64,000 nucleotides of DNA from a virus: IMG/VR virus record IMGVR_UViG_3300032331_002826, positions 10,204 to 74,203 of that record, one strand, 5' to 3'. A program made the translations under genes and the position numbers. The notes below the pieces were generated by a model. That model saw nothing but the letters and a program-made list of their open reading frames with translations, was not told where the DNA came from and ran no database searches. This document shows positions 49,369-63,920 of this stretch, one piece after another; the stretch's first letter is position 1; every line of letters starts with the position of its first letter.

Positions 49369-49394
49369 AAATTTTGAAAGAACAACTATAAGTA

Positions 49395-50105: not shown

Positions 50106-50179
50106 TGGAGCGGGTAGTGGGAATCGAACCCACACATCAACCTTGGCAAGGTCGAAGGCTACCACTACATCATACCCGC
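50106..50179 (-). tRNA. tRNA-Gly(GCC)
   Basis: Cloverleaf, anticodon loop UUGCCAA, U73, CCA. Confidence 0.92.
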
Positions 50180-50191
50180 ATTATTAAAATT

Positions 50192-50267
<76 letters not shown>

Positions 50268-50400
50268 ATTTAATATCACCAATACATAGTGATAAAAAAT
50301 TGAAAAAAACACAAACCGTGCTATTATACGCTAAAAAGCAATGCGGCACATGCGCCCAAACCCTTACGGAATCCTCCTATCGGGTGTTTGTGTTTTCAAT

Positions 50401-50556
50401 TGGATGACCGTGACTTGCGAATATATGGGGATTTCACGAAAAACGTTCCTAGTATTGAACAGGACATGATCCACTGTTCACCAGTCTATCCCACCAACTT
50501 CAGTCTCTTATACCCTCCCACGGGTATCGTGCATTAATTCTATACACCAACGATCA
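50401..50556 (-). ncRNA. tRNA-like RNA with a large insertion at the T-arm position
   Basis: Acceptor UGAUCGU/ACGGUCA-U-CCA, D-like GUGUA/UGCAC, AUACCC/GGGUAU hairpin, then an insert of about 90 nt. Confidence 0.55.
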
Positions 50557-50561
50557 AATTT

Positions 50562-50918
50562 TTAATCTCCTTTTTGGAGTCGAATACTATCTTCATCAAA
50601 ATGTTGTGTACTGAATTCAAACAACTCAGTGTCTTCAATTGCATACATTTGATGTTTCAGTCCAATTGGAATATGAAAATGGTCACCCTTGTTTAATGCA
50701 ACAGATGTAGACTTATTAATATCATCGTGCCAACCATAATACAATATAATCTTTCCACTTTGGACATAAAATGTTTCATCCTTAATTTTGTGATAGTGCC
50801 AACTACACTTTCGATCCTTCACAAGATAAAGAATCTTGCCACAATACTTTTCATTGTTGACAATCCACTTTTCAAATCCCCATCCCTTCGGTACAATATG
50901 TAATCTTTGGTAATCCAT
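50562..50918 (-). CDS. Cupin-domain protein (sugar isomerase-like)
   Basis: KGWGFE, SWHYHKIKDETFY, IP.G..H. Confidence 0.85.
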   Translation of the reverse strand: MDYQRLHIVPKGWGFEKWIVNNEKYCGKILYLVKDRKCSWHYHKIKDETFYVQSGKIILYYGWHDDINKSTSVALNKGDHFHIPIGLKHQMYAIEDTELFEFSTQHFDEDSIRLQKGD

Positions 50919-50925
50919 AAATTAA

Positions 50926-51213
50926 TTTGACACAGCCGTAGCCGATGTTCTGTTCTATTCCTACATTTATCTCAATATCTCTATTGGTCATCCATTAAAG
51001 ATGACTGCTCCAACCTTGTCCTGATAACGTGCAGCACTACACTCGGACACTTTAGGATTACTGCTAATTTGTGGTGTTAACGAGGGGGACTATCACAATG
51101 AAGTGGTCTTAGCCGATTTGGACTCGGTTTACAATGCCCTCTCCCAATCATCTGCTGTGCAGCATCGAACTTCCTCTAGGATATTATCCCAGCGTAGGAT
51201 CGCTTATGTCAAA
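50926..51213 (-). ncRNA. rnpB: RNase P RNA (catalytic subunit) with a divergent S-domain
   Basis: P1 UUUGACAUA/UGUGUCAAA, P2 UCCUAC/GUAGGA, P3 hairpin, CR-I GAGGAAGUUCGAUG, CR-IV AGAUAAAUG, CR-V ACAGAACAUCGGCUAC; forms P4 with a bulged U. Confidence 0.85.
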
Positions 51214-51235
51214 ATTTCAGTCAGTGTTTGATAAA

Positions 51236-51454
51236 CTATTGCTTTGCAAACAAATGCAGATTCTCTGCTTTCAACGTATCCATTTGTTTTTCTATGACTT
51301 TGCGTTTTGTAACGTCATTTGTTTTCTCCCATTTTACCACAAGCGAACTGTATTGCTTGCGATACTTTTCAATGGTGAGTTTTTTGGTTACGTTGTCTGC
51401 GCCAAATGCATTCAATGCAAGTGTCAATACGATTGTTGCTAGAATTGTTTTCAT
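51236..51454 (-). CDS. Small secreted protein
   Basis: Signal peptide MKTILATIVLTLALNAFG; start moved so it does not overlap the tRNA. Confidence 0.65.
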   Translation of the reverse strand: MKTILATIVLTLALNAFGADNVTKKLTIEKYRKQYSSLVVKWEKTNDVTKRKVIEKQMDTLKAENLHLFAKQ

Positions 51455-51481
51455 ATGTTCAACAATACATATTGATGAAAG

Positions 51482-51557
51482 TGGTCGGAGTGGAGAATTT
51501 CGCAATCTCAACCTCCTGTCTCCAAAACAGGCCGTCTACTTTTGACATTACACTCCG
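51482..51557 (-). tRNA. tRNA-Pro(UGG) with an atypical T-arm
   Basis: CGGAGUG/CACUCCG-A-CCA, loop UUUGGAG, T-loop UGCGAAA. Confidence 0.8.
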
Positions 51558-51565
51558 ATAAAAAT

Positions 51566-51639
51566 TGGCAGGGGATAAGGGAATCGAACCCCTACAAAGG
51601 GCTTCAAAGGCCCCCGCACTACCATTATGCAAATCCCCA
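51566..51639 (-). tRNA. tRNA-Gln(UUG)
   Basis: Loop CUUUGAA, G73, CCA. Confidence 0.9.
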
Positions 51640-51648
51640 GTTCTAAAT

Positions 51649-51739
51649 TGGCGGTGAGGGAGGGATTCGAACCCTCGGTGGTTTTTTAGTCCACAACAGT
51701 TTAGCAAACTGTCTCTTTAGACCACTCAGACACCTCACC
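51649..51739 (-). tRNA. tRNA-Ser(GCU)
   Basis: Long V-arm, loop UUGCUAA. Confidence 0.93.
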
Positions 51740-51821
51740 GTAAAATATTTGACATCTCCGATTTCTTCAAGGGACGATTTTATCAGTCCTCGGCTCTAAG
51801 TCAAGTAGAGTTGTATTAAAT

Positions 51822-51909
51822 TGGAGGAGAGAGAGGGATTCGAACCCCCGGAGGCTTTCACCCCTACGGTTTTCAAGACCGTCGCCTTAGACCACTCAGC
51901 CACCTCTCC
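51822..51909 (-). tRNA. tRNA-Ser(UGA)
   Basis: Long V-arm, loop CUUGAAA. Confidence 0.93.
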
Positions 51910-51929
51910 ATTTTGAAAGAACTATATGT

Positions 51930-51957
51930 AGTATAAACACAAACGTGTTGATGTCAA
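51930..51957 (-). promoter_or_regulatory. Sigma70-type promoter for the tRNA-Ser cluster
   Basis: TTGACA-N16-TATACT. Confidence 0.75.
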
Positions 51958-52077
51958 CTACAAACTAAATTTTCTACCGTTTAAAGCCGTCTTACCATTC
52001 AAATAAATTTGAATGCGTCTAAGCAGGGTTTTCGCCCCTCGTTCACCATATGGTGAATACGTCTAAACTAGCAAAAT

Positions 52078-52153
52078 TGGTGGACCAGGTGAGAATCGAA
52101 CTCACAACAGATTGCTTGCAAAGCAGTCTCGCTCCCTTAGAACATGCCAGCCC
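52078..52153 (-). tRNA. tRNA-Ala(UGC), second copy
   Basis: G3:U70, loop UUUGCAA. Confidence 0.88.
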
Positions 52154-52161
52154 GTAAAATT

Positions 52162-52248
52162 TGGTGGGTGTAGAGGGACTTGCACCCCCATGCCTTTCGG
52201 CAGCTCGTTTTAAGTGAGCCGTGTATACTAATTCCAAACCATACACCC
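52162..52248 (-). tRNA. tRNA-Leu(UAA)
   Basis: Long V-arm, loop CUUAAAA, T-loop UGCAAGU. Confidence 0.88.
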
Positions 52249-52260
52249 GTTATCTAAACT

Positions 52261-52338
52261 TGGTAGCTACGACTGGATTCGAACCAGCACTATTCTATTT
52301 TTGAGATAGACGACTCCTCCCAATTGGTCTACGTAGCC
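52261..52338 (-). tRNA. tRNA-Leu(CAA) with a short V-arm
   Basis: Loop CUCAAAA, A73, 5-nt variable region. Confidence 0.82.
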
Positions 52339-52348
52339 ATTAAAAATT

Positions 52349-52432
52349 TGGTCGGCATGATAGGACTTGCACCTACACCCCTTTCGGGACGAGCTTCTAA
52401 GACTCGCATGGCTTCTATTACATCACATGCCG
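52349..52432 (-). tRNA. tRNA-Leu(UAG)
   Basis: Long V-arm, loop CUUAGAA, T-loop UGCAAGU. Confidence 0.85.
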
Positions 52433-52435
52433 ATT

Positions 52436-52513
52436 TGGTGGCGACGACAGGATTCGAACCTGCACTACCGGAGTTCTCAACCCCGTGACTCCTTCCAGTT
52501 GGTCTACGTCACC
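52436..52513 (-). tRNA. tRNA-Leu(GAG) with a short V-arm
   Basis: Loop UUGAGAA, A73, 5-nt variable region. Confidence 0.82.
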
Positions 52514-52531
52514 ATATCAAAGATCAAAAAT

Positions 52532-52605
52532 TGGTCGGCCACGTCAGAATTGAACTGACTCTCTATGCTCCCAAAGCACACGTGCTACCGTAACACTTGT
52601 GACCG
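52532..52605 (-). tRNA. tRNA-Pro(UGG)
   Basis: CGGUCAC/GUGGCCG-A-CCA, loop UUUGGGA. Confidence 0.88.
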
Positions 52606-52612
52606 ATTAAAA

Positions 52613-52690
52613 TGGTCGGAGTGACAGGATTTGAACCTGCAACTTCTTGCTCCCAAAGCAAGCGCTCTAGCCAAGTTGAGCTACACTCCG
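52613..52690 (-). tRNA. tRNA-Pro(UGG)
   Basis: Canonical cloverleaf, loop UUUGGGA. Confidence 0.95.
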
Positions 52691-52699
52691 ATAATACTG

Positions 52700-52879
52700 T
52701 TACTCTACATTCAACAACTTCAAATACTTATTCTCAGGTTCAGGGAAGATACTGTCAGCAACCTTCTTGATTGCCATGTAGTAACTATACGTTGGAAACC
52801 TCTCCAACATCATCCTGTTTCTAAGGTACTCGAACTGTACCTCGTTGTCAACATCATTCTTCAAGTTGTAATCAGACAT
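52700..52879 (-). CDS. Small hypothetical protein (59 aa) within the tRNA array
   Basis: MSDYNLKNDVDNEVQFEYLR... fills the gap between two tRNAs exactly. Confidence 0.55.
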   Translation of the reverse strand: MSDYNLKNDVDNEVQFEYLRNRMMLERFPTYSYYMAIKKVADSIFPEPENKYLKLLNVE

Positions 52880-52897
52880 ATTTTCTTTTGTTAAAAA

Positions 52898-52973
52898 TGG
52901 TACGTGGGGAGGGACTCGAACCCCCGATAGGCACGGTGTAAACGTGCTACTTTGGCCACTAAGCTACCCACGC
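52898..52973 (-). tRNA. tRNA-Val(UAC)
   Basis: Loop UUUACAC, A73. Confidence 0.93.
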
Positions 52974-52990
52974 ATCTCAGTTGTTCATAC

Positions 52991-53018
52991 ATACTAACAC
53001 CAAATTTCAAATTGTCAA
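52991..53018 (-). promoter_or_regulatory. Sigma70-type promoter for the tRNA array
   Basis: TTGACA-N16-TAGTAT with an extended -10 TG. Confidence 0.7.
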
Positions 53019-53027
53019 GGAACTATG

Positions 53028-53064
53028 AAAAAGAAAAAACCGTTGGTTTTTAGACCAACGGTTT
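53028..53064 (-). terminator. Intrinsic terminator (possibly part of an attenuator)
   Basis: AAAACCGTTGGT/ACCAACGGTTTT stem plus a U-tract. Confidence 0.85.
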
Positions 53065-53092
53065 TGAAACTTACCTTCAACCGTCGATCCGT

Positions 53093-53167
53093 CTAGCCGA
53101 GGCTAGGTTGTGGGGCAGCACTTAGAAGTGCTGAGACCAAACTGGATGACGACAACTGAATGTTCAT
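53093..53167 (-). CDS. Putative leader peptide MNIQLSSSSLVSALLSAAPQPSLG
   Basis: 24-codon ORF just upstream of mutually exclusive hairpins. Confidence 0.4.
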   Translation of the reverse strand: MNIQLSSSSLVSALLSAAPQPSLG

Positions 53168-53190
53168 ACGACAATACATATCACGAAAAA

Positions 53191-54123
53191 TTAAAAACGT
53201 ACATTATTTTTGAACCAACTATATGTTTTTTCAAGACCGTCCTTCAAATTTGTTTTTGGCTTCCATCCCATAGAACAAATTCTGGACGAGTCCATTAGCT
53301 TACGAGGAGTTCCATCTGGCTTTGCTGTATCCCACACAACTTCACCTTCATATCCCACCACGTCTTTGACCAAATAAACTGCTTCTCGTATAGACAAATC
53401 AGATCCATACCCAACATTGATGTGAAGTGAACCATCATAGTTGTTCATTAAAAACAAACAAGCATCTGCCAAATCATCCACGTAAAGAAACTCTCTCAAC
53501 GGAGATCCAGTTCCCCAACAAACCACCTCCGGTTTGTTGTTTATTTTAGCTTCATGAAACTTACGAATCAATGCTGGCAACACATGTGAACTCGTCAAAT
53601 CAAAGTTGTCGTTGTCACCGTACAAATTACAAGGCATGGCAGAAATGTAGTTGCTTCCATACTGATGTTTGTATGACTGACACATCTTGATGCCTGCGAT
53701 CTTTGCGATGGCATAGGCATCGTTTGTTGGTTCAAGCAGTCCTGTGAGTAGATGTTCCTCTTTAATCGGCTGTGGAGCGAATTTAGGATAGATACAACTG
53801 CTTCCAAGAAACAACAACTTTTTCACGTTGTGAGTGTAACTCATGTGAATAAGATTATTTTGAATCTGCAAGTTGTTGTATATGAATTCTGCCTGTTTTG
53901 TACTGTTGGCAATAATTCCACCAACAGTAGCAGCAGCTACAAAAACATACTCTGGTTGAACTGTGTCAAAAAACTTTTCTACTTTGCTTTGATCTCTAAG
54001 ATCAAGATCTTGACTTGTGACACCCGACAAATTTGTGTATCCATTGTTTATCAATGTTCTCCAAATTGACGATCCAACCATACCACGATGTCCGGCGATA
54101 TAAATTTTCGAGTCTTTGTTCAT
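53191..54123 (-). CDS. fcl: GDP-L-fucose synthase
   Basis: [49 protein letters not shown]. Confidence 0.95.
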
Positions 54124-54773
54124 ATTTGACCATCTGAAGAAAATTCCAGATTACAATTAACTAGTTTGTTCTTGGCACAAAACACCTTCATATTGTTGAA
54201 ATTCAAATATAGCTGTGTATCGATTTGATATTCAAACGGTTTCATATGCATAATCTTTTTTGCACCAATCGGTGATAATAGAAATCCGTATAGACAATTC
54301 AGTTGTCCTTTTGGTATAACCAAATTGTCGGTATATGGTTCAAACCTACAATTTGATCCAACACAATATCCAAGGTAACATAAATCAAAATCTTCTGGCA
54401 ATTCATTTTGAATCAATTGAAGATCTGAATCAAACGTATCGGATATGGTTATGTCATCTTCAAAGATCAAATAGGTGTGTTGGTTTGTCTCAGCCTCACT
54501 ACACAACTTCATGTAACTGTATAATATGGCAAGAGATCCTGTGTTAAAATGTATGCCGTATTCGTTTTTTGGCGGATTGTGAATCCTATTAAAAGCATCA
54601 GTTGTGATGATGTCATGTGAACCATTTGAGTCAATTAGGTTTCCATCTACCGCAGTAAAAATCTTGTATGAGTTATTCAACCGATTTGATTTTGTAAACT
54701 CATTCTGTATGTGCAGTCGTCGATCTAAACGTCGTTGAAGATTCAACACATAAATTTTGTCTATTGATATCAT
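54120..54773 (-). CDS. GT25 glycosyltransferase
   Basis: YVLNL.RR.DRR, AVDG, LIFEDD, D..YLG, QIDT. Confidence 0.88.
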
Positions 54774-54803
54774 AACAAAAAAACCGCCCGTAGGCGGCGA
54801 TGT

Positions 54804-55049
54804 TTATCCGTTCAACTTTCCTTTTTCATGACAATTTCTACTCAACGATAAAATCTCATCAAGACTCTCTTTGACGCGAATTGGATGCTGTAGATTGTTT
54901 TTTGTGAAGATCAAACTGTGAACCACCGATGGTTCAATGTTGATTACCATATCAAGATTGATAAGGTTAGGAATGTATTTTCGATTGGTTGTATTCTCGG
55001 TTCCATCGTGACCCGGATCCAATACGTTTAGTTTAACGAAGTGCGCCAT
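54804..55049 (-). CDS. Small FlbD-like hypothetical protein
   Basis: FVKL...INLDMVINIE...IRVKESLDEI; start set at 55049 after a late-type motif. Confidence 0.55.
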   Translation of the reverse strand: MAHFVKLNVLDPGHDGTENTTNRKYIPNLINLDMVINIEPSVVHSLIFTKNNLQHPIRVKESLDEILSLSRNCHEKGKLNG

Positions 55050-55070
55050 ATTTTGTGTATATAAATGATT

Positions 55071-55103
55071 AACCGGCACCAACTGTAACATTGGTGCCGG
55101 TTT
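55071..55103 (-). terminator. Hairpin terminator after the OMP gene
   Basis: AACCGGCACCAA/TTGGTGCCGGTT. Confidence 0.65.
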
Positions 55104-55126
55104 ATGTCAACTGATTTTTAGTTCAA

Positions 55127-55825
55127 TTAGAACGTGAACTTAACTCCGGCAGAATATACAACCGTACCGGCGAACTCACGGGTAGCAAAGTTGTAGTCCT
55201 TCGTCTTGAAGTCGTTATCAAACCAACCAACTTCAGCATAAGGAGTCACCGTACCAATACGAGTAACAAAGGAACGAGCCAACGTACCCTTAACCTGAAG
55301 CGTTTCATAGTTGTTGACATAACCATACTCGACTGCTGGAGTTACGGTAACTCCATAGAACAACTTCTGTGTGCGATATGCACCGACAAACACACCGTTC
55401 TGATGCAAATCAATGTCGAATGCACCACGAACATATGGCGTCACGTATGGATTGGCCAAAGCGAGCTTGGTCCCAAACTCAGTAGAGTTAGGAATTCCCG
55501 CAATACCGCTTTGGTGACGAGTGACATCGCCGGTCAAACGAATTGAGAAGTCCTTGTTAAGTTCAACACTCTTGCCTGCACCAAGCACCCAGTGACTCTG
55601 GTCGAGTCCGCTGTTTGGCAACAGTGTACCGCCGAGATACACATCTCCAACGCCAAATGACTTGATAGCACCAACTGTCAAAGCTGGGGTATTGTCAGCA
55701 CGGGATACTCCGTTTACAATGTAATGGTTGTTATAGCCGGCATCAACGGAGATATTAGCAACATCAGCTGCGTTGATAGAGACGACAGCAATAAGAGCTG
55801 CCCACAATACTAGTAGTTTCTTCAT
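55127..55825 (-). CDS. Outer-membrane beta-barrel protein
   Basis: Signal peptide MKKLLVLWAALIAVVSINA, amphipathic strands, C-terminal BAM-type motif YSAGVKFTF. Confidence 0.8.
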   Translation of the reverse strand: MKKLLVLWAALIAVVSINAADVANISVDAGYNNHYIVNGVSRADNTPALTVGAIKSFGVGDVYLGGTLLPNSGLDQSHWVLGAGKSVELNKDFSIRLTGDVTRHQSGIAGIPNSTEFGTKLALANPYVTPYVRGAFDIDLHQNGVFVGAYRTQKLFYGVTVTPAVEYGYVNNYETLQVKGTLARSFVTRIGTVTPYAEVGWFDNDFKTKDYNFATREFAGTVVYSAGVKFTF

Positions 55826-55932
55826 ATTTAATTTTTTCTTTATTTTAGGTTTACCAAATCCATCGACACTCGTCGAATTCATTGTCGTTCGACCGGTCAG
55901 AAAAAATCCGAATCGAACATTAGTGAGTCATA

Positions 55933-55961
55933 ACTTTATCTCAAAACCATGATATTGTCAA
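55933..55961 (-). promoter_or_regulatory. Sigma70-type promoter of the OMP gene
   Basis: TTGACA-N17-TAAAGT. Confidence 0.6.
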
Positions 55962-56016
55962 TGATTTTAATTGGAAACAATACATAGTGTGTTTCTTTTT
56001 ATAACATCAATCATTT

Positions 56017-56850
56017 TTAGGAGGTTATCATAACCAAATTGTTTGTAGTATATTTATCTATTGAAGAATGACATGGAAGCAAACTGTTTTTTTGAAAATC
56101 TGATATCGACATCGGATTGCCATTGATAAAAAACGGTTCGAGATTTCTGAAGTCAATGACCTCAAAATTCTCAATTAACATTTCATTGTATCTGGAATCA
56201 TTCATTGGAAATCTAAACTCCCCGTAAGAATAATAGAATCTCCAAAACCACTCCACCGGCGATTTCTCAGGATTGTACATCGTCAGATTCTTTGTTTTTA
56301 GAAACGATGCAAAAATGTTGACTTCGGAAGAATGGTATCGATCAATTCCTTCGTACATAAATTCTCCGCTAATATTTGCATCATACATTTCTTTGTATGT
56401 CTTTTGAAGGTTTACAGTTTTTCCACCAACTATATGATCTCCGATATGATACGGTCTATCTATAACCCAACTTATGTTGCTACCATACAACTTTTCTGGA
56501 TCTCCATTTTTTATCTTATCAACAAGATACTGTATGTTTGAAATTGACATGTCCGTTCTAATTCTGACACTGTACATCGAATTAGATAAAAGCATACCTC
56601 TATGTATTTGTAACGATTGATATGCGCTGCTCAGGTAATACGGATTGTTTTTCAGTTGTACGATTTCTGTGTCACAACTCAATACTATGCAGTCATACAA
56701 GTCGTAATGTTCCGGCTTTATTTTTGTAACGTCACATTTATACGTAGATAGAATTATCCTTCCGTGTTTTTTAAGTTCGGAAAGCATTGATGTGTGGGTG
56801 TAATCATACTTACCTGTTATTACAAATGTAAACTCATTGTTTGTATTCAT
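56017..56850 (-). CDS. WavE-like glycan biosynthesis protein
   Basis: IILST, Q....GM, VRIRTD, HIGDH..G, SE motifs. Confidence 0.55.
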   Translation of the reverse strand: MNTNNEFTFVITGKYDYTHTSMLSELKKHGRIILSTYKCDVTKIKPEHYDLYDCIVLSCDTEIVQLKNNPYYLSSAYQSLQIHRGMLLSNSMYSVRIRTDMSISNIQYLVDKIKNGDPEKLYGSNISWVIDRPYHIGDHIVGGKTVNLQKTYKEMYDANISGEFMYEGIDRYHSSEVNIFASFLKTKNLTMYNPEKSPVEWFWRFYYSYGEFRFPMNDSRYNEMLIENFEVIDFRNLEPFFINGNPMSISDFQKNSLLPCHSSIDKYTTNNLVMITS

Positions 56851-56907
56851 GTCAGAGATATATAGGTGCACAAAAAATGCCAGAGAACTTAATCTCTGGC
56901 ATTAAAT

Positions 56908-56991
56908 TGGTGGGTATGGAGGGAGTCGAACCCCCACGCCTTTCGGCGCAGCATTTTGAGTGCTGTATGTCTGCCATTCCATCACATACCC
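56908..56991 (-). tRNA. tRNA-Leu(CAA) with a long V-arm
   Basis: Loop CUCAAAA, canonical structure. Confidence 0.93.
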
Positions 56992-57020
56992 ATTAAAATT
57001 CAAAAGAACAACTAAAAATC

Positions 57021-57105
57021 TGCGGGTATTGAAAGATTCGAACTTTCAATGCGGATATAAAGTGACCTGTTATATTCCGCTACTACTCCAAGTAGACACA
57101 TACCC
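57021..57105 (-). ncRNA. tRNA-like RNA with an elongated anticodon arm
   Basis: GGGUAU/AUACCC acceptor, T-arm GAAAG UUCGAAU CUUUC, about 10-bp central arm, ends in GCA. Confidence 0.55.
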
Positions 57106-57112
57106 ATTAAAT

Positions 57113-57280
57113 TGTAGACCGTGGTGGGATTGGATCACCCACAACTAGTTTCAAGGCTGGTTAAGCTATATCTAGCACCCGTCTGATGGACACAATTTGA
57201 TTCAACTACACTTGGAAACCACTCCAAGTAACGTACTTCGTGCTACCCATCATCCGTATGTCTAATTCCATTACACAGTC
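57113..57280 (-). ncRNA. tRNA-like RNA with about 110 nt of structure replacing the anticodon arm
   Basis: GACUGUG/CACGGUC acceptor, Leu-type D-arm AUGGAAUUAGACAU, T-stem GUGGG/CCCAC. Confidence 0.6.
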
Positions 57281-57284
57281 AAAA

Positions 57285-57491
57285 TTATTTTGTCTTCTTA
57301 CGATTATGAATAAAAACATAACCTACAGTGGCCAAAACAAACACTCCAGAAGCATATGTGCTTGTTTCAGGAACAATACAATGTTCATATTTATCATCAC
57401 GATATTCGTCACGATGTTCGTCACGATGTTCGTCGCCTGCCAAGACAGTTAAAGATGAAACGGCAATTAAAAATGCAATCAAATATTTCAT
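57285..57491 (-). CDS. PEP-CTERM-type mini-protein
   Basis: Signal peptide, (DEHR)n repeats, then VPETSTY + TM helix + RKKTK. Confidence 0.75.
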   Translation of the reverse strand: MKYLIAFLIAVSSLTVLAGDEHRDEHRDEYRDDKYEHCIVPETSTYASGVFVLATVGYVFIHNRKKTK

Positions 57492-57692
57492 ATTGAATTA
57501 AGTGTTTTTGTTGGTTGTTGGTCAGGATAAACGTTTTTAATAAATTGAGTTACTCCACCGTATATTAAGGAAATTACTATAACATATAGAATCAACTCTG
57601 TCAAAAACATTTGTCGTCTGAACCTATTAATGTAATGTACTTGTTTTTGTTTCATACTAAGATTCTTGAATGCATCTACTAGGATTAAAAAA

Positions 57693-57786
57693 TGGTAGCC
57701 TCGCCCGGATTCGAACCGAGACTGCGCTCAAATCTAGAGCATATCAGAGGTATAAGCTCTGCATTCTACCATTAAATTACGAGGCT
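57693..57786 (-). tRNA. tRNA-Ile(UAU) with a long V-arm
   Basis: AGCCUCG/CGAGGCU-A-CCA, loop CUUAUAC, 24-nt variable region. Confidence 0.8.
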
Positions 57787-57797
57787 ATTATTAAAAT

Positions 57798-57884
57798 TGG
57801 TAGCGGGAGAGGGATTTGAACCCCCGAGGCACTAAGGCACCACGTTATGAGCGTGGCCAGATACCGGACTTCTGACATCCCGCA
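57798..57884 (-). tRNA. tRNA(CAU), atypical Met/fMet-like
   Basis: Loop CUCAUAA, U1-U72 mismatch, extended V-region. Confidence 0.75.
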
Positions 57885-58012
57885 GTCCATAAATTTTCAA
57901 AAAAACAGTGATTAGGTTAACCCCAACATCCATATGTTACGTTCTATATTTCGTCCACAAAGAATGCCTTCTTTGTATCTCCGATTTATATCTTTGTTGG
58001 CTAATCAAAAAT

Positions 58013-58086
58013 TGGTTGCGGGTGAAGGAATTGAACCTCCAGCTTCAGCTTATGAAACTGACGAGTTACCGTTACTCTAACCCGCA
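58013..58086 (-). tRNA. tRNA-Met(CAU), initiator-like
   Basis: UGCGGGU/ACCCGCA-A-CCA, A11-U24, loop UUCAUAA. Confidence 0.85.
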
Positions 58087-58106
58087 ATTGTAAAAGAACA
58101 AAAAAT

Positions 58107-58290
58107 TGGCCCGACTGTTTTTTTATTGAATCCTAATCCAGTCGGACGATTAGGATACCATGACTCATCCCCGCAACCAAGAAGTTTTTAAGAGACTTCC
58201 AACTCTAGGGGTGTTTTGGTTATATACCCTCCACCACCGGTTTCTTTAGCGCCCACAGTGGCAACCGGAAAGTTCCTGCTGAGCGTTTTG
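58107..58290 (-). ncRNA. Structured RNA ending in an H-type pseudoknot plus CCA
   Basis: S1 AUCCUAAUC/GAUUAGGAU, S2 CCGACUG/CAGUCGG, A-rich connecting loop. Confidence 0.55.
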
Positions 58291-58305
58291 ATTTTTCAAT
58301 CAAAT

Positions 58306-58380
58306 TGGTAGTCCGTAGGGGAATCGAACCCCTCTTACTGCCGTGAAAGGGCGGTGTCCTAGCCGATAGACGAACGGACC
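58306..58380 (-). tRNA. tRNA-Glu(UUC)
   Basis: Loop CUUUCAC, canonical structure. Confidence 0.93.
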
Positions 58381-58383
58381 ATT

Positions 58384-58491
58384 TTAAAGAACATCATTGT
58401 CACGATTTGACAAACCACAAAATCTACCCACCATCACAACAAAGACGGCGTATACTATCACTCCTATTGCCACATAAATAGTTGTAATCAT
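58384..58491 (-). CDS. Small single-TM peptide (35 aa)
   Basis: MITTIYVAIGVIVYAVFVVMVGRFCGLSNRDNDVL. Confidence 0.45.
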   Translation of the reverse strand: MITTIYVAIGVIVYAVFVVMVGRFCGLSNRDNDVL

Positions 58492-58504
58492 AAAATCTTG
58501 TTTA

Positions 58505-59346
58505 AAAGTGTTTGGCGTGAGATTACCGCCTTCACTGTTGACCTTCGGTTGTATTATACCCATCTTGCGGACAGGCTTCCCAACTTATCCACGATCACGA
58601 CCTTGCGGCCTATAACCGTATTCAACATGACTGCCTTTTTAGGGTTGTGGCTTTTCAACCTTAATCTAAGACTATTCAACCTTCATCCATCCGTCTGCCT
58701 TGCGAGCAGTTAAGTCTTGCGGACTCCGTTCAGACTCCAATCAACAACTAGTGTCTTGCGGACATTTCGTTGTCTGTGTTACCTTTCGGCCACAGAGTTA
58801 AGTCACTTTCATCTTAGACAAACAACGACTTTGCGTTTTAATATATGAATCGGATTTGCACCGACAACACATAGCGTACAAGGCTATTGCTCTACTGTTG
58901 AGCTATCATGCACCTAACAGTGACGTGCGTTGTTTGTCGTTTCATATCCTTTTGGGATACAATATGCGACACGCCACATGCGTTTCTCTTGCGGATACTT
59001 CACCGATTTTCAAGATTGTGTACTCAGTTGCCCATGTCCACTCTCTATCAATCTACATACGAGCATTTGATTGCGGTCTCACACCCGTATCTTTGGCTTA
59101 AATCTTATTCTTGACTGTTCCACTTGGGAATCAATAGTGCTCGTCGGTATCGTTAGTAGACAACTTACAGTGTTACCCTCAGTCATCATTTATTGATCCA
59201 GCTTCAGACATACTTCCACCTTTTGGATGAAAGTCACAGACTTTGTCAGTTGCTTGAGTGTCCTAGTTACCTAGGCGAGGGTCCGTTAGGGGACATCCTC
59301 TTTCATGAGTATTGCTACTCACTATCTTAAGGGAGTCAAGCCTCCC
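58505..59346 (-). ncRNA. Giant ornate ncRNA (GOLLD-like) with a nested tRNA; boundaries approximate
   Basis: About 840 nt with no minus-strand ORF, six CGCAAG hairpin loops, many stems, inside a tRNA array, upstream sigma70 promoters. Confidence 0.65.
58841..58912 (-). tRNA. tRNA-Thr(UGU)-like module nested in the giant RNA (no CCA)
   Basis: D GCUC/GAGC, anticodon arm AUAGC CUUGUAC GCUAU, T GUCGG UGCAAAU CCGAU, weak acceptor stem. Confidence 0.7.
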
Positions 59347-59452
59347 AAATCTTTTTACTACACTTACAAAGAACATTTGATGGATTCGGTTCCTAGTCAC
59401 TCTTTTAAGTTGATCTACAGTATCAACTCCATCCAAATCTTATCGTTCGTAC

Positions 59453-59481
59453 ATCTTACCACCGTATCTCGGTTGTGTCAA
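59453..59481 (-). promoter_or_regulatory. Sigma70-type promoter upstream of the giant RNA
   Basis: TTGACA-N17-TAAGAT with TG; a second one, TTGACA-N17-TAGGAT, lies at 59543-59571. Confidence 0.75.
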
Positions 59482-59545
59482 CAACTTTTTGAATCTTTTT
59501 TTGACTCGTTCGTTGTTGATATACGAACTTGATTGTGGATTTATC

Positions 59546-60451
59546 CTACACCACAACTAGGTTGCTGTCAACAGAAAAGTTGTTTACCAACGTCATTTGT
59601 GGTCGAACATACTGATTCACTGAATGAAAAACCATCTCTGGATTAACTCGAAAATCATTCTTTTCGTCGATGATAAGTATCTGAGTATTTTCGTTTCGAT
59701 ACATTTCAATCAATTCTTTTGTAACCTGTAATCCAAACACATTTGCGTCTGGATACTGAGTTATGAATGGTTCTACCACCCGTTTAACATCCGAAAATAA
59801 TTGACTCAACTCTGAGGATTTTGGTTCTTTTGCCAACTGGTAGATGTTAGAAAAGAACGCATAAAATTCGTTTAACTTGACTTTGGAAACAGATGCATCC
59901 GAATCTCCAATAACATCATCATACATCCTTTTTATCTTAACAACGCTTTCATGTTTACTGTAACTACAATAATTGAAAAACCTTTTAAGACCAAAAGTAA
60001 CGTATCTAAAATTGTTGATCGTTTCAATGTTTACGTTTGTGCCAAATCTAATTGCCTCATTGGCATCCTTAATACGTTTGACTTCGTATCGTGTATTGTT
60101 GAACTTAAGATCGCCCTTGTCAATTCTCACCGAATCTCGAAACAACAAATACAAAGCAAACTCTCCTTCACCAACTTGGACTTTCTTGTATTCCAAAAGT
60201 TTAGGGTTGCTCTTGATAAAAGAAAATGCAGATTCTATAGTTTGATCCGTCAATCTAAACAACGTCAAATAGTTAACCAACAATTGATGATCATCATTGG
60301 AAACTTCAGTACCAAAAAACACTTTCCATTTGAGCTGAACATATTCATCGATGCTAAATATTTCTGGAGTTGAAGTCAATGATTCGATTGTTTCTTTTGA
60401 AACAATATAACGAGCGGACTTTGGCTTGACTTCAACTACACAATCAAACAT
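59546..60451 (-). CDS. Putative PD-(D/E)XK endonuclease
   Basis: VGEGEFAL...KGDL......YEVK. Confidence 0.5.
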   Translation of the reverse strand: MFDCVVEVKPKSARYIVSKETIESLTSTPEIFSIDEYVQLKWKVFFGTEVSNDDHQLLVNYLTLFRLTDQTIESAFSFIKSNPKLLEYKKVQVGEGEFALYLLFRDSVRIDKGDLKFNNTRYEVKRIKDANEAIRFGTNVNIETINNFRYVTFGLKRFFNYCSYSKHESVVKIKRMYDDVIGDSDASVSKVKLNEFYAFFSNIYQLAKEPKSSELSQLFSDVKRVVEPFITQYPDANVFGLQVTKELIEMYRNENTQILIIDEKNDFRVNPEMVFHSVNQYVRPQMTLVNNFSVDSNLVVV

Positions 60452-60526
60452 GCCCTATAACTAGGGCAATACATAAGATTGACTCTGGAAATTTTAAAAA
60501 TTCTTGTGGGTCAACTCAATGAAACT

Positions 60527-61222
60527 CTATTTCCATGCGTATATCATGGATTGAAATGGTCTGGATAGTACAGTTACATAGTAAAATCCATTTTCAGATA
60601 GTTTTGCAGCAAAGTTAAACCGTTCAGCAGTTCTCTGTTGTTCGGTAATGGTTTGATCTTCATGATATTCAATTGCCATTTTTTGTATCTTATCCCACGA
60701 TGTGTTACTTACGTTATTGAACACAGTTTTTTCATGTCCTTCAATATCAACTTTTAGAAAATCAATTCGATCAAAATTGTGTTGTGCAACGTATTGATCA
60801 AATGTAATACACCGTACCTTTCGTGTATTTGCATATGGCCACTGATTGACATCAATTGATCCTTCTGATTGTGAGATTGCAACGTTGTCAACAATCCAAT
60901 TTGATGATTTATTTCTCAATAGAGCCTCATAACAATCAACATCGGGTTCTACACAGTATATCTTTCCTGCTTTTCTTCGTTCTGCATTTAATGCAGCCAT
61001 ACCAATGTTTGCACCCAAATCAACGCAAATATCACCCTCGCTTATTCCAGGTCCAACACTGTTTAGATCATCGTGAATCAAATTACTCCACGCCATTGTG
61101 GCTTCCCATCCATATTTGACACCCAATTCATTACATGATAAATTACGTTCAAATCTAGATACATCTACGATTTTTCCACCCAAGGTATATAACTGTTGAT
61201 ATCTATCTGATATAATTGCCAT
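60527..61222 (-). CDS. FkbM-family methyltransferase
   Basis: VDLGANIG, VEPD, LKVDIEGHE, IEYH. Confidence 0.9.
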   Translation of the reverse strand: MAIISDRYQQLYTLGGKIVDVSRFERNLSCNELGVKYGWEATMAWSNLIHDDLNSVGPGISEGDICVDLGANIGMAALNAERRKAGKIYCVEPDVDCYEALLRNKSSNWIVDNVAISQSEGSIDVNQWPYANTRKVRCITFDQYVAQHNFDRIDFLKVDIEGHEKTVFNNVSNTSWDKIQKMAIEYHEDQTITEQQRTAERFNFAAKLSENGFYYVTVLSRPFQSMIYAWK

Positions 61223-61320
61223 AACTTTTTGAATATATAGATGATCGTTAAACTAGAAGTTCGTTAGTTTTTGTGAACAAACCGATTGAGATATTGTTCA
61301 TAGAACCGATCATCAAAAAT

Positions 61321-61398
61321 TGGAGCACCGTGTTGGATTCGAACCAACGATTTTAGAGTTTTGCAGACTCTTGCCTTGGGCCACTCGACCAACGGTGC
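61321..61398 (-). tRNA. tRNA-Cys(GCA)
   Basis: Loop CUGCAAA, U73. Confidence 0.92.
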
Positions 61399-61405
61399 GT
61401 TAAAT

Positions 61406-61480
61406 TGGCTGACACTGTAGGACTTGCACCTACAATCTTTCGGGTCAGAACCGACTGCGTTTCTATTACGCCAAGTGTCA
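61406..61480 (-). tRNA. tRNA-Gln(CUG)
   Basis: Loop UUCUGAC, G73, T-loop UGCAAGU. Confidence 0.83.
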
Positions 61481-61489
61481 ATCTTAAAC

Positions 61490-61566
61490 TGGAGCCTCAT
61501 GACAGACTTGCACTGTCCTCTTTAGTTTACGAAACTAACACATCAAGCTATCTATGTTTATGAGGC
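61490..61566 (-). tRNA. tRNA-Thr(CGU)
   Basis: Loop UUCGUAA, T-loop UGCAAGU. Confidence 0.82.
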
Positions 61567-61571
61567 GAAAT

Positions 61572-61649
61572 TGGGGTGTACGACGAGATTCGAACTCGCA
61601 TCTGCTAGACTCACAATCTAGGGCATTAACCAATTATGCTACATACACC
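61572..61649 (-). tRNA. tRNA-His(GUG)
   Basis: Encoded G-1, C73, loop UUGUGAG. Confidence 0.92.
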
Positions 61650-61665
61650 ATTTTGATTAAAAATA

Positions 61666-61742
61666 TGGAGCCTTATTCCAGACTTGCACTGGATTCTCAA
61701 GTTTACCGAACTTGCATAATAAACTACTTATACTAATAAGGC
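61666..61742 (-). tRNA. tRNA-Thr(GGU), atypical (C33)
   Basis: Loop UCGGUAA, T-loop UGCAAGU, weak D-stem. Confidence 0.7.
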
Positions 61743-61747
61743 AATTA

Positions 61748-61896
61748 TTTGAACACAGTTGGATTATTTATACCAACACAGTATCAATTCTTAGAGCCAG
61801 TTACGATTCAGAGTCGCACCGTGGATACTTCACTCGGCAGTTAGCTGGATACGTTTTCCAGTCGTCTTAGCGACAAATATTCGCCTTGTGTTCAAA
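61748..61896 (-). ncRNA. Unclassified multi-branch RNA
   Basis: 10-bp closing stem UUUGAACACA/UGUGUUCAAA with several internal hairpins. Confidence 0.45.
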
Positions 61897-61898
61897 AA

Positions 61899-61975
61899 TG
61901 GTGGGCATGGCAGGATTCGAACCTGCAACTTCGAGTTTCGAAGACTCGCACTCTATCCAATTGAGTTACACACCC
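61899..61975 (-). tRNA. tRNA-Arg(UCG)
   Basis: Loop CUUCGAA. Confidence 0.92.
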
Positions 61976-61995
61976 GTTGTTAACTAACTGTCTAT

Positions 61996-62023
61996 ATCCT
62001 ATCACACTTTTTTAAAATGTCAA
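61996..62023 (-). promoter_or_regulatory. Sigma70-type promoter
   Basis: TTGACA-N16-TAGGAT with TG. Confidence 0.7.
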
Positions 62024-62030
62024 CAAAAAT

Positions 62031-62106
62031 TGGTGCTCATAGTAGGAATCGAACCTACAATCTCCTCGTTAGGACCGAGTTGCTTTATCCGTTTAGCTAT
62101 ACGAGC
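62031..62106 (-). tRNA. tRNA-Arg(CCU)
   Basis: Loop GUCCUAA. Confidence 0.87.
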
Positions 62107-62229
62107 AAAATGTTTGGTGCTAGTTGATCTGCCAGTTCGTTCTCCTTCGCCAACTACTCACACACACGAAACGATAAAAAGTGCGGTTAACACCAAACAC
62201 TCATATACATAGTGTGTCATTTCTAAAAA

Positions 62230-62306
62230 TGGTGCTGTCGAGAGGAGTCGAACCTCTAACCTGATGATTCGTAGTCATCTGCTCTATCCAATTGAGCTAC
62301 GACAGC
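62230..62306 (-). tRNA. tRNA-Arg(ACG)
   Basis: Loop CUACGAA. Confidence 0.94.
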
Positions 62307-62321
62307 ATTGATCGATCATAG

Positions 62322-63014
62322 TTAACTCACGTATGCAATTACTTCGTATCGTGGGTTAAATTGGTCACCCGAAAGATTTTCCCACGTGAAATTTATTCTG
62401 CTGTTACCAACACTTTCTCCACCCTTCTTGGAAAAAGTCAACAATCTTGTTCCTTTTTGACCTAGAAGAATATCGCCAGTAACCATATCAAGTTCAAATC
62501 CTGCAGCATCCAACGCTTTGGAAATCAATCCAAGTGTGCTCTTAAAACTTTCAAGTTTCTTCAAACCTTTCAATTCAGGAAATACTTCTAGATTTTTTGC
62601 AATCAACTTCTTTTCCTGTGGAGTAATTCGATATCCTTCCACTTTTGCTTCATCATATTGATCTGGTTCATACTCATCCTGATCATTGTAAGAATCCGCC
62701 ACACGATCAAAAATATCGTTCTGTAACTGTTCCAAATCAGAATCGGATAGATCAATCTCTTTGCCAGTTGAATCTTTTACACTTTCAATCTCAATTGACG
62801 CATCTTCATCTGGCTCCAATTGAAGACCCGTTCCACGTTCACGTGCACCACGGGATGCTGGATAATATGTGTATGTTACAGTAACATCAACCTCTTCTTC
62901 AACATCAGTTTCAGGATTGGTGATGGTCAATGTTGTATCAAACACGCTTTCATTCAGATTTTTTCTGAGTTTAAACATGTTGTCGCCGATATTTTCAAAA
63001 AGTTTTTTCTTCAT
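62322..63014 (-). CDS. Hypothetical acidic protein (late-expressed)
   Basis: ORF preceded by TATTTATA at 63022-63029; start set at MKKKLFEN. Confidence 0.65.
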   Translation of the reverse strand: MKKKLFENIGDNMFKLRKNLNESVFDTTLTITNPETDVEEEVDVTVTYTYYPASRGARERGTGLQLEPDEDASIEIESVKDSTGKEIDLSDSDLEQLQNDIFDRVADSYNDQDEYEPDQYDEAKVEGYRITPQEKKLIAKNLEVFPELKGLKKLESFKSTLGLISKALDAAGFELDMVTGDILLGQKGTRLLTFSKKGGESVGNSRINFTWENLSGDQFNPRYEVIAYVS

Positions 63015-63075
63015 ATGTCCATATAAATAGTTGTTATTATACACTTGAACAAAAATTTATATCACAATCAAAAGT

Positions 63076-63152
63076 TGGTGCACCCGGCAGGACTTGAACC
63101 TGCAACCTTCTCGGTAGAAACGAGTTGCTCTATCCAATTGAGCTACGAGTGC
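63076..63152 (-). tRNA. tRNA-Arg(UCU)
   Basis: Loop UUUCUAC. Confidence 0.9.
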
Positions 63153-63159
63153 ATAAAAT

Positions 63160-63233
63160 TGGTTGTCTCTGACGGTAACGCTCCGTCGTCTATCGATTAT
63201 CAGTCGATTGCTCTGCTATTGAGCTAAGAGACA
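63160..63233 (-). tRNA. tRNA-Ile(GAU) with an atypical T-loop
   Basis: Loop CUGAUAA, T-loop AGCGUUA. Confidence 0.82.
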
Positions 63234-63240
63234 ATTAAAA

Positions 63241-63319
63241 TGGCGAGGGTAGCCGGATTCGAACCGAGCAAGTCTGCACAGTGACAGTGTGCGATGTTAA
63301 CCAGTTACACCATACCCCC
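63241..63319 (-). tRNA. tRNA-Asp(GUC)
   Basis: Loop CUGUCAC, G73. Confidence 0.9.
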
Positions 63320-63517
63320 CCAGTAAATTGGATTTTTGAAAGGATTTCACGATAAAATGTGTTCTACATTCGTTAAGGAGTCGCACCTTAAATCTCCCGC
63401 TTTCTTTTTATGGCGGGCGTTCTTCTCTTAAACTACATTCGTATCTATCTTCAAGGAAAAAGTATCAGGAGCGACCCAATACAAACCTTTTTGACTAGCT
63501 TTGTCAAATAACTAAAA

Positions 63518-63592
63518 TGGTAGGACTCCACGGTAACGATCCGTGTTCTACTGGTTAAAAGCCAGTTGCTTCACCGTTAAAGCTTGAATCCC
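63518..63592 (-). tRNA. tRNA-Lys(UUU) with an atypical T-loop
   Basis: Loop CUUUUAA, T-loop AUCGUUA. Confidence 0.83.
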
Positions 63593-63842
63593 ATTGAAAT
63601 TGGTGGGTTCTTTCCCTCTGTCATTCATCGTGGTGCGAGAGTTCATCCTCTACCACTATCGGAGCGAATTGCCGTCGAACTTCTAAATTGGTGCTGTGCT
63701 CTCCACGCCGTCTCTGTGTTTTACCGAATGTACCGGTCGGCAGTCACTTATGGGGTCAGTTACCCATTACTAAATTGGCAGTTAGTTTAATGTGTCTTTA
63801 CACAAAAGATTTAACTACTAACTGTTCAGTGTTAGCTGAAGA

Positions 63843-63920
63843 TGGTGGATGCGGTGGGATTTGAACCCACAACCTTTCGGGTAAGAGCCGAATACTCTGA
63901 TCCAGTTGAGTTACACATCC
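63843..63920 (-). tRNA. tRNA-Lys(CUU)
   Basis: Loop CUCUUAC, canonical structure. Confidence 0.92.

What the first reader, a model, noticed from the sequence alone, without database searches (positions are those of the whole stretch)
58505..59346. Giant ornate RNA with a tRNA-Thr nested in an 11-bp stem
Seen: about 840 nt with no sense-strand ORF; CGCAAG loops at 58564, 58602, 58699, 58716, 58755 and 58988; tandem promoters upstream. A tRNA-Thr(UGU) cloverleaf (58841-58912, no CCA) is enclosed by the perfect pair 58817-58827/58928-58938. No free Thr(UGU) occurs in the window. Known: GOLLD RNAs are about 800 nt, phage- and tRNA-associated, can contain tRNAs, and have no known function. Inference: a GOLLD relative or new class; the nested tRNA could be a cleavage site for the phage RNase P.
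Basis: partly seen in the sequence, partly recalled or inferred. Interest (0 to 1): 0.8.

Follow-up and report, generated by a model that had tools for sequence, protein, structure and literature searches.

The report
Phage GOLLD RNA with embedded tRNA-Thr
This gene-free 0.85-kb stretch of a freshwater jumbo-phage contig encodes a genuine member of GOLLD, a known family of giant cage-forming phage RNAs, with a tRNA-Thr in its central linker; the layout is already published, so it is a well-supported but ordinary example.

Summary
The interpretation "GOLLD relative" is right; "new class" and "phage RNase P site" are not supported.

- **Family:** Rfam GOLLD (RF02032) matches window 58514-58977 (minus strand) over the full model, at 203 bits against a cut-off of 150.
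- **Extent:** conservation in four related viral contigs puts the unit at about 58505-59350, including a covarying 5' domain.
- **The 11-bp stem:** it is not special to the tRNA. It is the conserved pseudoknot helix that closes the GOLLD linker (J13/15). It covaries in 16 relatives, with or without a tRNA, and matches covarying pairs 467-471/555-559 of env-38 in Kretsch et al. 2025.
- **Nested tRNA:** tRNAs in this linker are published. Here 11 of 19 related GOLLDs carry one.
- **Expression:** freshwater metatranscriptome contigs carry the RNA in one piece across the tRNA. One is 775 nt at depth 98, with no cover on the flanking genes.
- **Small new details:** the nested tRNA is the only one of 31 without an encoded CCA. 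It evolves faster than the scaffold, yet keeps its cloverleaf and UGU anticodon.

The scan has found close relatives of this RNA before on other DNA (e1-5392628, e1-5392612, e1-5740755) and reached the same verdict. It is a new member of a known kind.

The parts
58505..59350 (-). Whole GOLLD RNA unit (about 845 nt)
   Evidence: Conserved block against L024 (87% identity), L021 (74.5%) and L038/L039 (87.8%). RNA contigs cover 58548-59322, 58914-59337 and 58504-58652.
58514..58977 (-). Conserved GOLLD 3' domain (Rfam RF02032 model 1-416)
   Evidence: 203.3 bits, gathering score 150, E 6.3e-56. The same hit is found in the whole contig.
58978..59350 (-). 5' domain (variable half of GOLLD), subfamily-specific
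   Evidence: RNAalifold on 5 sequences predicts 88 pairs, 30 of them with compensatory changes. Identity to L038 is 87.5%.
58920..58977 (-). First hairpin of the 3' domain: outer stem (58971-58977 with 58920-58926) and inner stem, with invariant loop CAAAAG
   Evidence: Helices 1-3 are 87-99% paired with compensatory changes. C24 A25 A26 A27 are invariant in 16 sequences. In the solved structures this loop makes an inter-chain minor-groove contact.
58928..58938 (-).
   Evidence: All 8 core pairs change on both sides across 16 GOLLDs, 84% of cells are paired, 0/500 shuffles reach this. It equals env-38 467-471.
58817..58827 (-). 3' arm of the linker-closing pseudoknot helix; it overlaps the start of the long-range helix by 4 nt
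   Evidence: It equals env-38 555-559.
58841..58912 (-). Nested tRNA-Thr(UGU) in linker J13/15
   Evidence: Features: 7-nt anticodon loop CUUGUAC, U1-A72, G2-U71, C3/A70 mismatch, A18/G55 elbow, no CCA.
58913..58919 (-). 7-nt single-stranded spacer (UGUUAGG) between the outer stem and tRNA position 1
   Evidence: Read.
58828..58840 (-). Conserved J13/15 motif UAAAACGCAAAGU; G58834-C58833 are the kissing nucleotides
   Evidence: Alignment A2 columns 164-176. Column 171 covaries with column 250. Published bridge B7, L20 with J13/15.
58750..58765 (-). Hairpin with CGCAAG loop (L20 candidate); G58759-C58758 is the partner of the J13/15 GC
   Evidence: the loop reads CCCAAG exactly in the three sequences whose J13/15 reads GG.
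59453..59481 (-). Proximal promoter-like site: TTGACA, 17-nt spacer, TG-TAAGAT
   Evidence: Conserved in L024. The block of similarity to L038/L039 spans this site.
59543..59571 (-). Distal promoter-like site: TTGACA, 17-nt spacer, TAGGAT; it overlaps the end of the upstream ORF
   Evidence: A -35/-10 pair lies at the same place in L024 and L021.
59364..59375 (-). boxA-like TGTTCTTTGTAA about 17 nt before the first GOLLD hairpin
   Evidence: The only exact match in the window. Similar GTTCTTTG/GATCTTTG is present in L038, L024 and L021. The count is not above chance.

Best explanation
This is a GOLLD RNA gene (Rfam RF02032) in the tRNA/tmRNA island of an uncultured freshwater T4-like jumbo phage.

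Shown:
- An RNA of about 845 nt is made from the minus strand and accumulates in lake and freshwater communities as one piece that includes the embedded tRNA.
- It has the family's 3' domain. It also has a covarying 5' domain.

Inferred by homology with the solved env-38 and S. agalactiae GOLLDs:
- Copies assemble through these loop contacts into a closed homo-oligomeric RNA cage.
- The 5' domains form the caps and the 3' domains the rings.
- The linker, here holding tRNA-Thr(UGU), points into the interior.

Inferred and uncertain: the tRNA stays mostly tethered as a cargo or handle rather than being a routine tRNA precursor. It is the only tRNA of the island without an encoded CCA, and the bridged form is what is seen in RNA libraries. 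A processed fraction that supplies Thr(UGU) for the phage's commonest Thr codon (ACA) is not excluded.
For: - Rfam GOLLD hit over the full model, 203.3 bits against 150.
- 19 of the 33 viral-contig loci retrieved by a 3'-end motif scan also pass the cut-off, and 11 of those 19 carry a tRNA at the same place.
- The linker-closing helix covaries: 8/8 pairs change on both sides, 0/500 shuffles reach this, and slid controls fall to 30-45% paired. It matches R-scape pairs 467-471/555-559 of env-38.
- The J13/15-L20 covariation is present, and the CAAAAG loop is invariant.
- The 5' domain has 30 compensatory pairs among 5 sequences.
- Metatranscriptomes: X13 has one 775-nt contig at 58548-59322 with 1 mismatch, depth 97.6, and zero cover on 55500-58073 and 59478-62500. 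X17 and X18 contigs also bridge the tRNA.
- All 30 free tRNAs end in CCA; the nested one does not. The same contrast holds in L024, L025, L018, L022 and L034.
- Literature: tRNAs occur in the GOLLD linker, which faces the cage interior (PMC12286853; PMC12990946).
Against: - Cage formation is inferred only; no structure or oligomer data exist for this sequence.
- Logan contigs cannot give ends, strand or the ratio of cut to uncut RNA. 'Mostly tethered' therefore rests on presence of the bridged form plus the missing CCA.
- Points in favour of a working tRNA: a canonical 7-nt anticodon loop; UGU kept in window and L038 through compensatory stem changes; no other Thr(UGU) in the 74-kb contig; ACA is the most used Thr codon (395 of 1076).
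- MFE z-score of the 5' domain alone is only -0.85.
Confidence: 0.93

Rival explanations
1. Precursor model. GOLLD is a carrier transcript from which RNase P (5') and RNase Z plus the CCA-adding enzyme (3') release a working tRNA-Thr(UGU). The two GOLLD halves stay together through the outer stem and the linker-closing helix.
For: - Canonical cloverleaf and 7-nt anticodon loop, 53.6 bits.
- UGU is conserved in window and L038 although the tRNA is only 70% identical between them.
- It is the only Thr(UGU) in the contig, and ACA is the commonest Thr codon.
- It shares the phage's own A18/G55 elbow variant with four free tRNAs.
- In the L013/L040 contig, where the nested anticodon loop is aberrant, ARAGORN calls a free Thr(tgt).
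Against: - No encoded CCA, against 30 of 30 free tRNAs with CCA.
- Weak acceptor stem with a C3/A70 mismatch.
- RNA contigs bridge both tRNA ends in three studies.
- Many related inserts cannot decode: anticodon loops of 6 or 8 nt, class-I 'Leu' and 'Ser', CUA. Eight of 19 GOLLDs have no Rfam-detected tRNA in the linker.
- No Rfam RNase P RNA in the proposed phage RNase P region at E<=1.
- In solved homologues the linker lies inside a closed cage.
Confidence: 0.3
2. A new class of giant RNA that only resembles GOLLD.
For: The 5' half is not covered by the Rfam model. It aligns only within a narrow subfamily: L024, L021, L038/L039, L040.
Against: - Full-length match to all 416 model positions, well above the cut-off.
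- All tested family helices and contact motifs are present.
- A variable 5' half is itself a defining trait of GOLLD.
Confidence: 0.02
3. Not one RNA: an ordinary tRNA gene with unrelated non-coding flanks, or a small protein gene.
For: Short ORFs exist: 81 aa on the + strand, up to 59 aa on the - strand.
Against: A single 775-nt RNA contig spans the region. There is extensive compensatory pairing on both sides of the tRNA. Relatives differ by indels that are not multiples of three.
Confidence: 0.01

Closest known systems
GOLLD RNA, Rfam RF02032 (Weinberg et al. 2009). Solved examples: env-38 833-nt 14-mer cage (PDB 9MEE; Kretsch et al. 2025, PMC12286853) and Streptococcus agalactiae 12-mer (9L0R) and 3'-domain decamer (9LMF), as listed in PMC12990946.
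   Same: - Full 3'-domain consensus.
- Linker-closing pseudoknot.
- CAAAAG loop.
- J13/15-L20 kissing pair.
- Terminal GUAAUCUCA hairpin.
- Variable 5' domain of about 370 nt.
- Total length about 845 nt.
- Phage origin, inside a tRNA island.
   Different: Sequence only. The 5' domain belongs to a freshwater subfamily. The linker holds a tRNA, whereas env-38 has a 42-nt disordered linker. In this copy the linker-closing helix is a perfect 11 bp, extended by 3 bp that compete with the base of the inner hairpin.
GOLLDs with an embedded tRNA, e.g. Mycolicibacterium GOLLD with tRNA-Phe in J13/15 (Morgado et al. [quoted passage not shown]
   Same: A tRNA sits at the same place, between the outer stem of the first 3'-domain hairpin and the conserved AAACGCAAAG motif.
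   Different: The isoacceptor is Thr(UGU). Here the contrast with 30 CCA-bearing free tRNAs in the same island, and the expression of the bridged form in environmental RNA, are documented.
ROOL RNA (the other cage-forming phage RNA found near tRNA islands)
   Same: Large phage RNA near tRNAs, a homo-oligomeric cage and an interior disordered linker.
   Different: Unrelated sequence and fold. No ROOL hit in the window at the gathering threshold.

Membership tests
GOLLD RNA (RF02032) | Covariance-model score at or above the curated gathering score over the conserved 3' domain | tested here: met
   203.3 bits against 150, model positions 1-416 of 416, E 6.3e-56 (repeated).
GOLLD RNA (RF02032) | First 3'-domain hairpin, plus a pseudoknot helix between its 3' bulge and the segment before the long-range helix, enclosing the variable linker | tested here: met
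   Window 58928-58938 pairs with 58817-58827. The helix covaries in 16 sequences. It corresponds to env-38 pairs 467-471/555-559.
GOLLD RNA (RF02032) | Inter-chain contact motifs: invariant A-rich loop of the first hairpin, and the J13/15-L20 kissing pair | tested here: met
   CAAAAG is invariant. GC/GC is present in the window, and GG/CC is co-changed in L019, L031 and L026.
GOLLD RNA (RF02032) | Less conserved but structured 5' domain of about 400 nt, total length about 800 nt or more | tested here: met
   58978-59350: 30 of 88 predicted pairs have compensatory changes. The conserved unit is about 845 nt.
GOLLD RNA (RF02032) | Phage or prophage location, usually next to tRNA genes | tested here: met
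   IMG/VR virus record. Portal, baseplate-wedge and SbcCD-like genes are present. There are 30 free tRNAs plus a tmRNA on the same strand.
GOLLD RNA (RF02032) | Expressed as a stable long RNA | tested here: met
   RNA-library contigs of 775, 424, 405 and 377 nt cover it, with no cover on the flanking ORFs in X13. Strand and ends are not determinable from contigs.
GOLLD RNA (RF02032) | Self-assembly into a closed homo-oligomeric cage | not testable with these tools
   Needs mass photometry or cryo-EM of the transcript.
Functional elongator tRNA-Thr | Cloverleaf with a 7-nt anticodon loop, U33, purine 37, and an intact elbow | tested here: met
   Loop CUUGUAC. The A18/G55 elbow variant is shared with 4 free tRNAs of this phage. 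tRNA model score 53.6 bits.
Functional elongator tRNA-Thr | A matured 3' end: encoded CCA as in the phage's other tRNAs, or evidence of processing and CCA addition | tested here: not met
   No CCA, against 30 of 30 free tRNAs with CCA. No evidence of cleavage; contigs bridge both ends.
   No RNase P family at the gathering score in the window, nor at E<=1 in 50300-51600.

The most novel reading that the evidence does not exclude
The linker tRNA is not a tRNA precursor. It is a permanently tethered tRNA-shaped cargo or handle. Selection keeps the cloverleaf, the elbow and, in this lineage, the UGU anticodon. It does not keep a CCA end, so each cage would display a set of inward-facing uncharged tRNA bodies. 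These could bind or hide from a tRNA-recognising partner, for example an anticodon nuclease, a modification enzyme, a synthetase or the ribosome. In that case the insert's fast turnover between strains would track that partner.
Probability: 0.3. Interest if true: 0.6.

Novelty: new member of a known kind. Interest (0 to 1): 0.3.

Why it matters
It adds one more well-documented GOLLD to a family whose function is still unknown.

Its practical value lies in four points:
- The insert is a clean, canonical tRNA-Thr, where most relatives carry aberrant ones.
- It shows a sharp internal control: 30 CCA-bearing free tRNAs against one CCA-less tethered tRNA.
- Close natural variants exist that differ mainly in the insert (L038/L039, L024, L021).
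- Its RNA is abundant in public freshwater metatranscriptomes.

Together these make it a good natural test set for the open question of whether GOLLD stores, delivers or merely displays its linker tRNA. It does not change what is known about the family.

Tried and rejected
- **Protein-based search:** a search for syntenic relatives with the upstream 301-aa ORF gave three loci at 34% identity and no GOLLD hit. It was not useful.
- **Single-sequence fold:** MFE of the 5' domain has z = -0.85, which is uninformative for a pseudoknotted multi-domain RNA.
- **X16 contig break at 58910/58914, beside the tRNA 5' end:** first considered as an RNase P trace. Rejected, because it is seen in one study only and lies at the border of the strain-variable tRNA segment (X18 joint 58839/58908). 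De Bruijn graph branching explains it. The same applies to the contig ends at 58758-58760 in X16 and X17, which sit next to SNPs at 58754 and 58762.
- **No RNA-contig cover between 59337 and the predicted start near 59446:** absence of cover is not evidence, so the 5' end is left open.
- **boxA-like motif:** there is an exact copy at 59364-59375, but 5 matches against 2.6 expected (12 of 100 shuffles reach this) is not significant.
- **The extra 3 bp that make the helix 11 bp here:** they are partly kept in relatives (A-U in 11/16, C-G in 10/16) but compete with the base of the inner hairpin. No case for a switch could be made.
- **Supplement text search:** Kretsch's supplement gave no hit for helix names. 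The covariation table served instead.
- **Morgado 2020:** PMC7549688 is not held.

Full report
**What is there**

The window is positions 10204-74203 of a 74.2-kb IMG/VR virus record. CheckV estimates the record at 28% complete. Portal, baseplate-wedge, major-head and SbcCD-like genes mark it as a large T4-like phage. DNA holders are lake and freshwater metagenomes from 14 studies.

On the minus strand lie 30 free tRNAs and a tmRNA. Between tRNA-Glu and a 301-aa ORF there is a stretch with no ORF of 60 aa or more on that strand.

- The six CGCAAG loops are at the stated places. That is 6 of the 13 CTTGCG copies in 64 kb, all within about 840 nt.
- The tRNA is at 58841-58912.
- The 11-nt arms are perfectly complementary.
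- There is no other Thr(UGU) in the window or the contig.
- Two promoter-like sites lie upstream.

**Identity**

Rfam GOLLD (RF02032) matches 58514-58977 (minus strand) over all 416 model positions, at 203.3 bits against a gathering score of 150. The model covers only the conserved 3' half.

The full unit was delimited by conservation:
- L024 is 87% identical over 59362-58492.
- L021 is 74.5% identical over 59350-58515.
- L038/L039 are 87.8% identical over 59536-58509.

The 5' half (58978-59350) is a real structured domain. RNAalifold on five sequences gives 88 pairs, of which 30 keep pairing through changes on both sides. The single-sequence MFE is uninformative.

**The 11-bp stem**

A motif scan of IMG/VR returned 33 loci. 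Nineteen of them pass the GOLLD cut-off.

- One arm lies in the 3' bulge of the first hairpin.
- The other lies in the segment just before the long-range helix.

The 8 core pairs all show changes on both sides. 84% of cells are paired, 0 of 500 shuffles reach this, and sliding the partner by 1-3 columns drops pairing to 30-45%. The helix is equally present in members without a tRNA, such as L012, L017, L005 and L008.

It crosses the outer stem of the first hairpin, so it is a pseudoknot and does not appear in Rfam's nested structure line.

Kretsch et al. 2025 list the same pairs as significant covariations. These are env-38 467-559 through 471-555, next to the disordered linker 497-538. The linker is called J13/15 by Kretsch, and L15 by the Su laboratory for a construct that lacks P13. 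From this I infer that the helix is P15, but I could not see the figures.

So the stem is a family feature that closes the linker. It is not an adaptation to the tRNA. In this copy it is 3 bp longer, at the expense of the base of the inner hairpin. Those pairs are only partly kept in relatives.

**The nested tRNA**

tRNAs in the GOLLD linker are published (PMC12286853 discussion; PMC12990946 conclusion citing Morgado 2020). Among the 19 related GOLLDs, 11 have an Rfam-level tRNA at the same offset.

Many of those inserts are aberrant by ARAGORN:
- anticodon loops of 6 or 8 nt;
- class-I bodies with Leu or Ser anticodons;
- a CUA anticodon.

The copy here is one of the clean ones:
- It has a 7-nt loop CUUGUAC with anticodon UGU.
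- It has good D, anticodon and T stems.
- Its acceptor stem is weak (U1-A72, G2-U71, C3/A70 mismatch).

Three further facts bear on its role.
1. All 30 free tRNAs of the island end in an encoded CCA followed by an A/T-rich trailer. The nested one does not. The same contrast is seen in L024 (11/11 free with CCA), L025 (18/19), L018, L022 and L034.
2. It is the fastest-evolving part of the RNA. Identity to L038 is 70%, against 88-94% for the scaffold. Yet the cloverleaf is kept by compensatory changes, and UGU is kept in window and L038. The L024/L013 lineage has an 8-nt (or 6-nt) loop, and ARAGORN calls a free 82-nt Thr(tgt) elsewhere in that contig.
3. It carries the A18/G55 elbow variant found in four free tRNAs of this phage, while its L038 and L024 counterparts have G18/U55.

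ACA is the phage's commonest Thr codon.

**Expression**

Four metatranscriptomic runs from four studies were laid on 55500-62500.
- X13 gives a single 775-nt contig over 58548-59322 with one mismatch, at depth 97.6. It shows nothing on the flanking protein genes, which argues against DNA carry-over.
- X17 (58758-59162) and X18 (58696-59003) also bridge the tRNA.
- A second X18 contig has the tRNA body replaced by 70 other letters. This fits an L038-like strain.

Contigs cannot give strand, ends or cut/uncut ratios. The breaks seen in X16 coincide with the borders of strain-variable sequence and are not counted as cleavage.

**Mechanism**

Shown: this is a GOLLD-family RNA that accumulates as a long RNA including the tRNA.

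Inferred from homology:
- The invariant CAAAAG loop matches contacts that hold the solved cages together.
- So does the J13/15 GC with the L20-loop GC, which change together to GG/CC in three relatives.
- I therefore expect a closed homo-oligomer with the linker, and so the tRNA, inside.

Whether the tRNA is released is open. I put about 0.55-0.6 on 'mainly tethered' and about 0.3 on routine excision; both may occur. Nothing supports a phage RNase P. No Rfam RNase P model matches the region proposed for it, even at E<=1.

**Comparison and novelty**

Every testable defining feature of GOLLD is met. The embedded tRNA, the linker-closing covariation and the tRNA-island context are all in print.

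The scan has already reported close relatives on other DNA with the same verdict. e1-5392628, e1-5392612 and e1-5740755 share 34-44 of 171 words with this stretch. Several other GOLLDs with tRNA inserts have also been reported.

New here, in detail only:
- the CCA contrast within one island;
- the elbow co-variation;
- the rate contrast between insert and scaffold;
- the environmental RNA evidence.

Verdict: a new member of a known kind, of modest interest.

Noticed in passing
window 50106-63920 (all tRNAs); nested tRNA 58841-58912: All 30 free tRNAs encode a 3' CCA followed by an A/T-rich trailer. The nested Thr(UGU) is the single exception. Relatives whose free tRNAs carry CCA show the same contrast (L024, L025, L018, L022, L034).
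   Followed up: partly
window 52162-52248, 52349-52432, 61406-61480, 61666-61742, 58841-58912: Five of 31 tRNAs have T-loop UGC (G55) together with D-loop AG (A18) instead of UUC/GG: Leu-UAA, Leu-UAG, Gln-CUG, Thr-GGU and the nested Thr-UGU. The nested tRNA of the close relatives L038 and L024 has the usual GG/UUC.
   Followed up: partly
L038 340-3831 compared with window 58306-61398: The GOLLD cassette sits at a different place in the related phage. L038 order: tRNA-Cys, CUA-tRNA, GOLLD, 231-aa ORF, 305-aa ORF, tRNA-Glu. Window order: tRNA-Cys, 231-aa ORF (FkbM-type methyltransferase), 301-aa ORF, GOLLD, tRNA-Glu. The GOLLD unit with its proximal promoter behaves as a movable block.
   Followed up: partly
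window 59376-59446 (-): An extra segment of about 71 nt lies between the proximal promoter and the GOLLD start. It is present in the window, and the block of similarity to L038/L039 runs through it. It is absent in L024. Its function is unknown.
   Followed up: no
window 49373-49384 (-), 58382-58393 (-), 59364-59375 (-): TGTTCTTT[G/C/A]NAA, resembling a boxA antitermination box, lies 1-17 nt upstream of three stable-RNA genes: tmRNA, tRNA-Glu and GOLLD. The total count in the window is not above shuffles.
   Followed up: partly
The only hit there is an extra tRNA-like element at 51485-51557 (36.8 bits, UGG anticodon) that ARAGORN did not list.
   Followed up: partly
L038 661-736; L034 nested insert: tRNAs with a CUA (amber-reading) anticodon occur in related phages, both as a free gene next to GOLLD (L038) and as the GOLLD insert (L034).
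   Followed up: no
L037 9718-9963; L031 12532-12733: Group I introns (Rfam RF00028) lie in the tRNA islands of two other GOLLD-bearing phage contigs. In L037 the intron is directly downstream of GOLLD.
   Followed up: no
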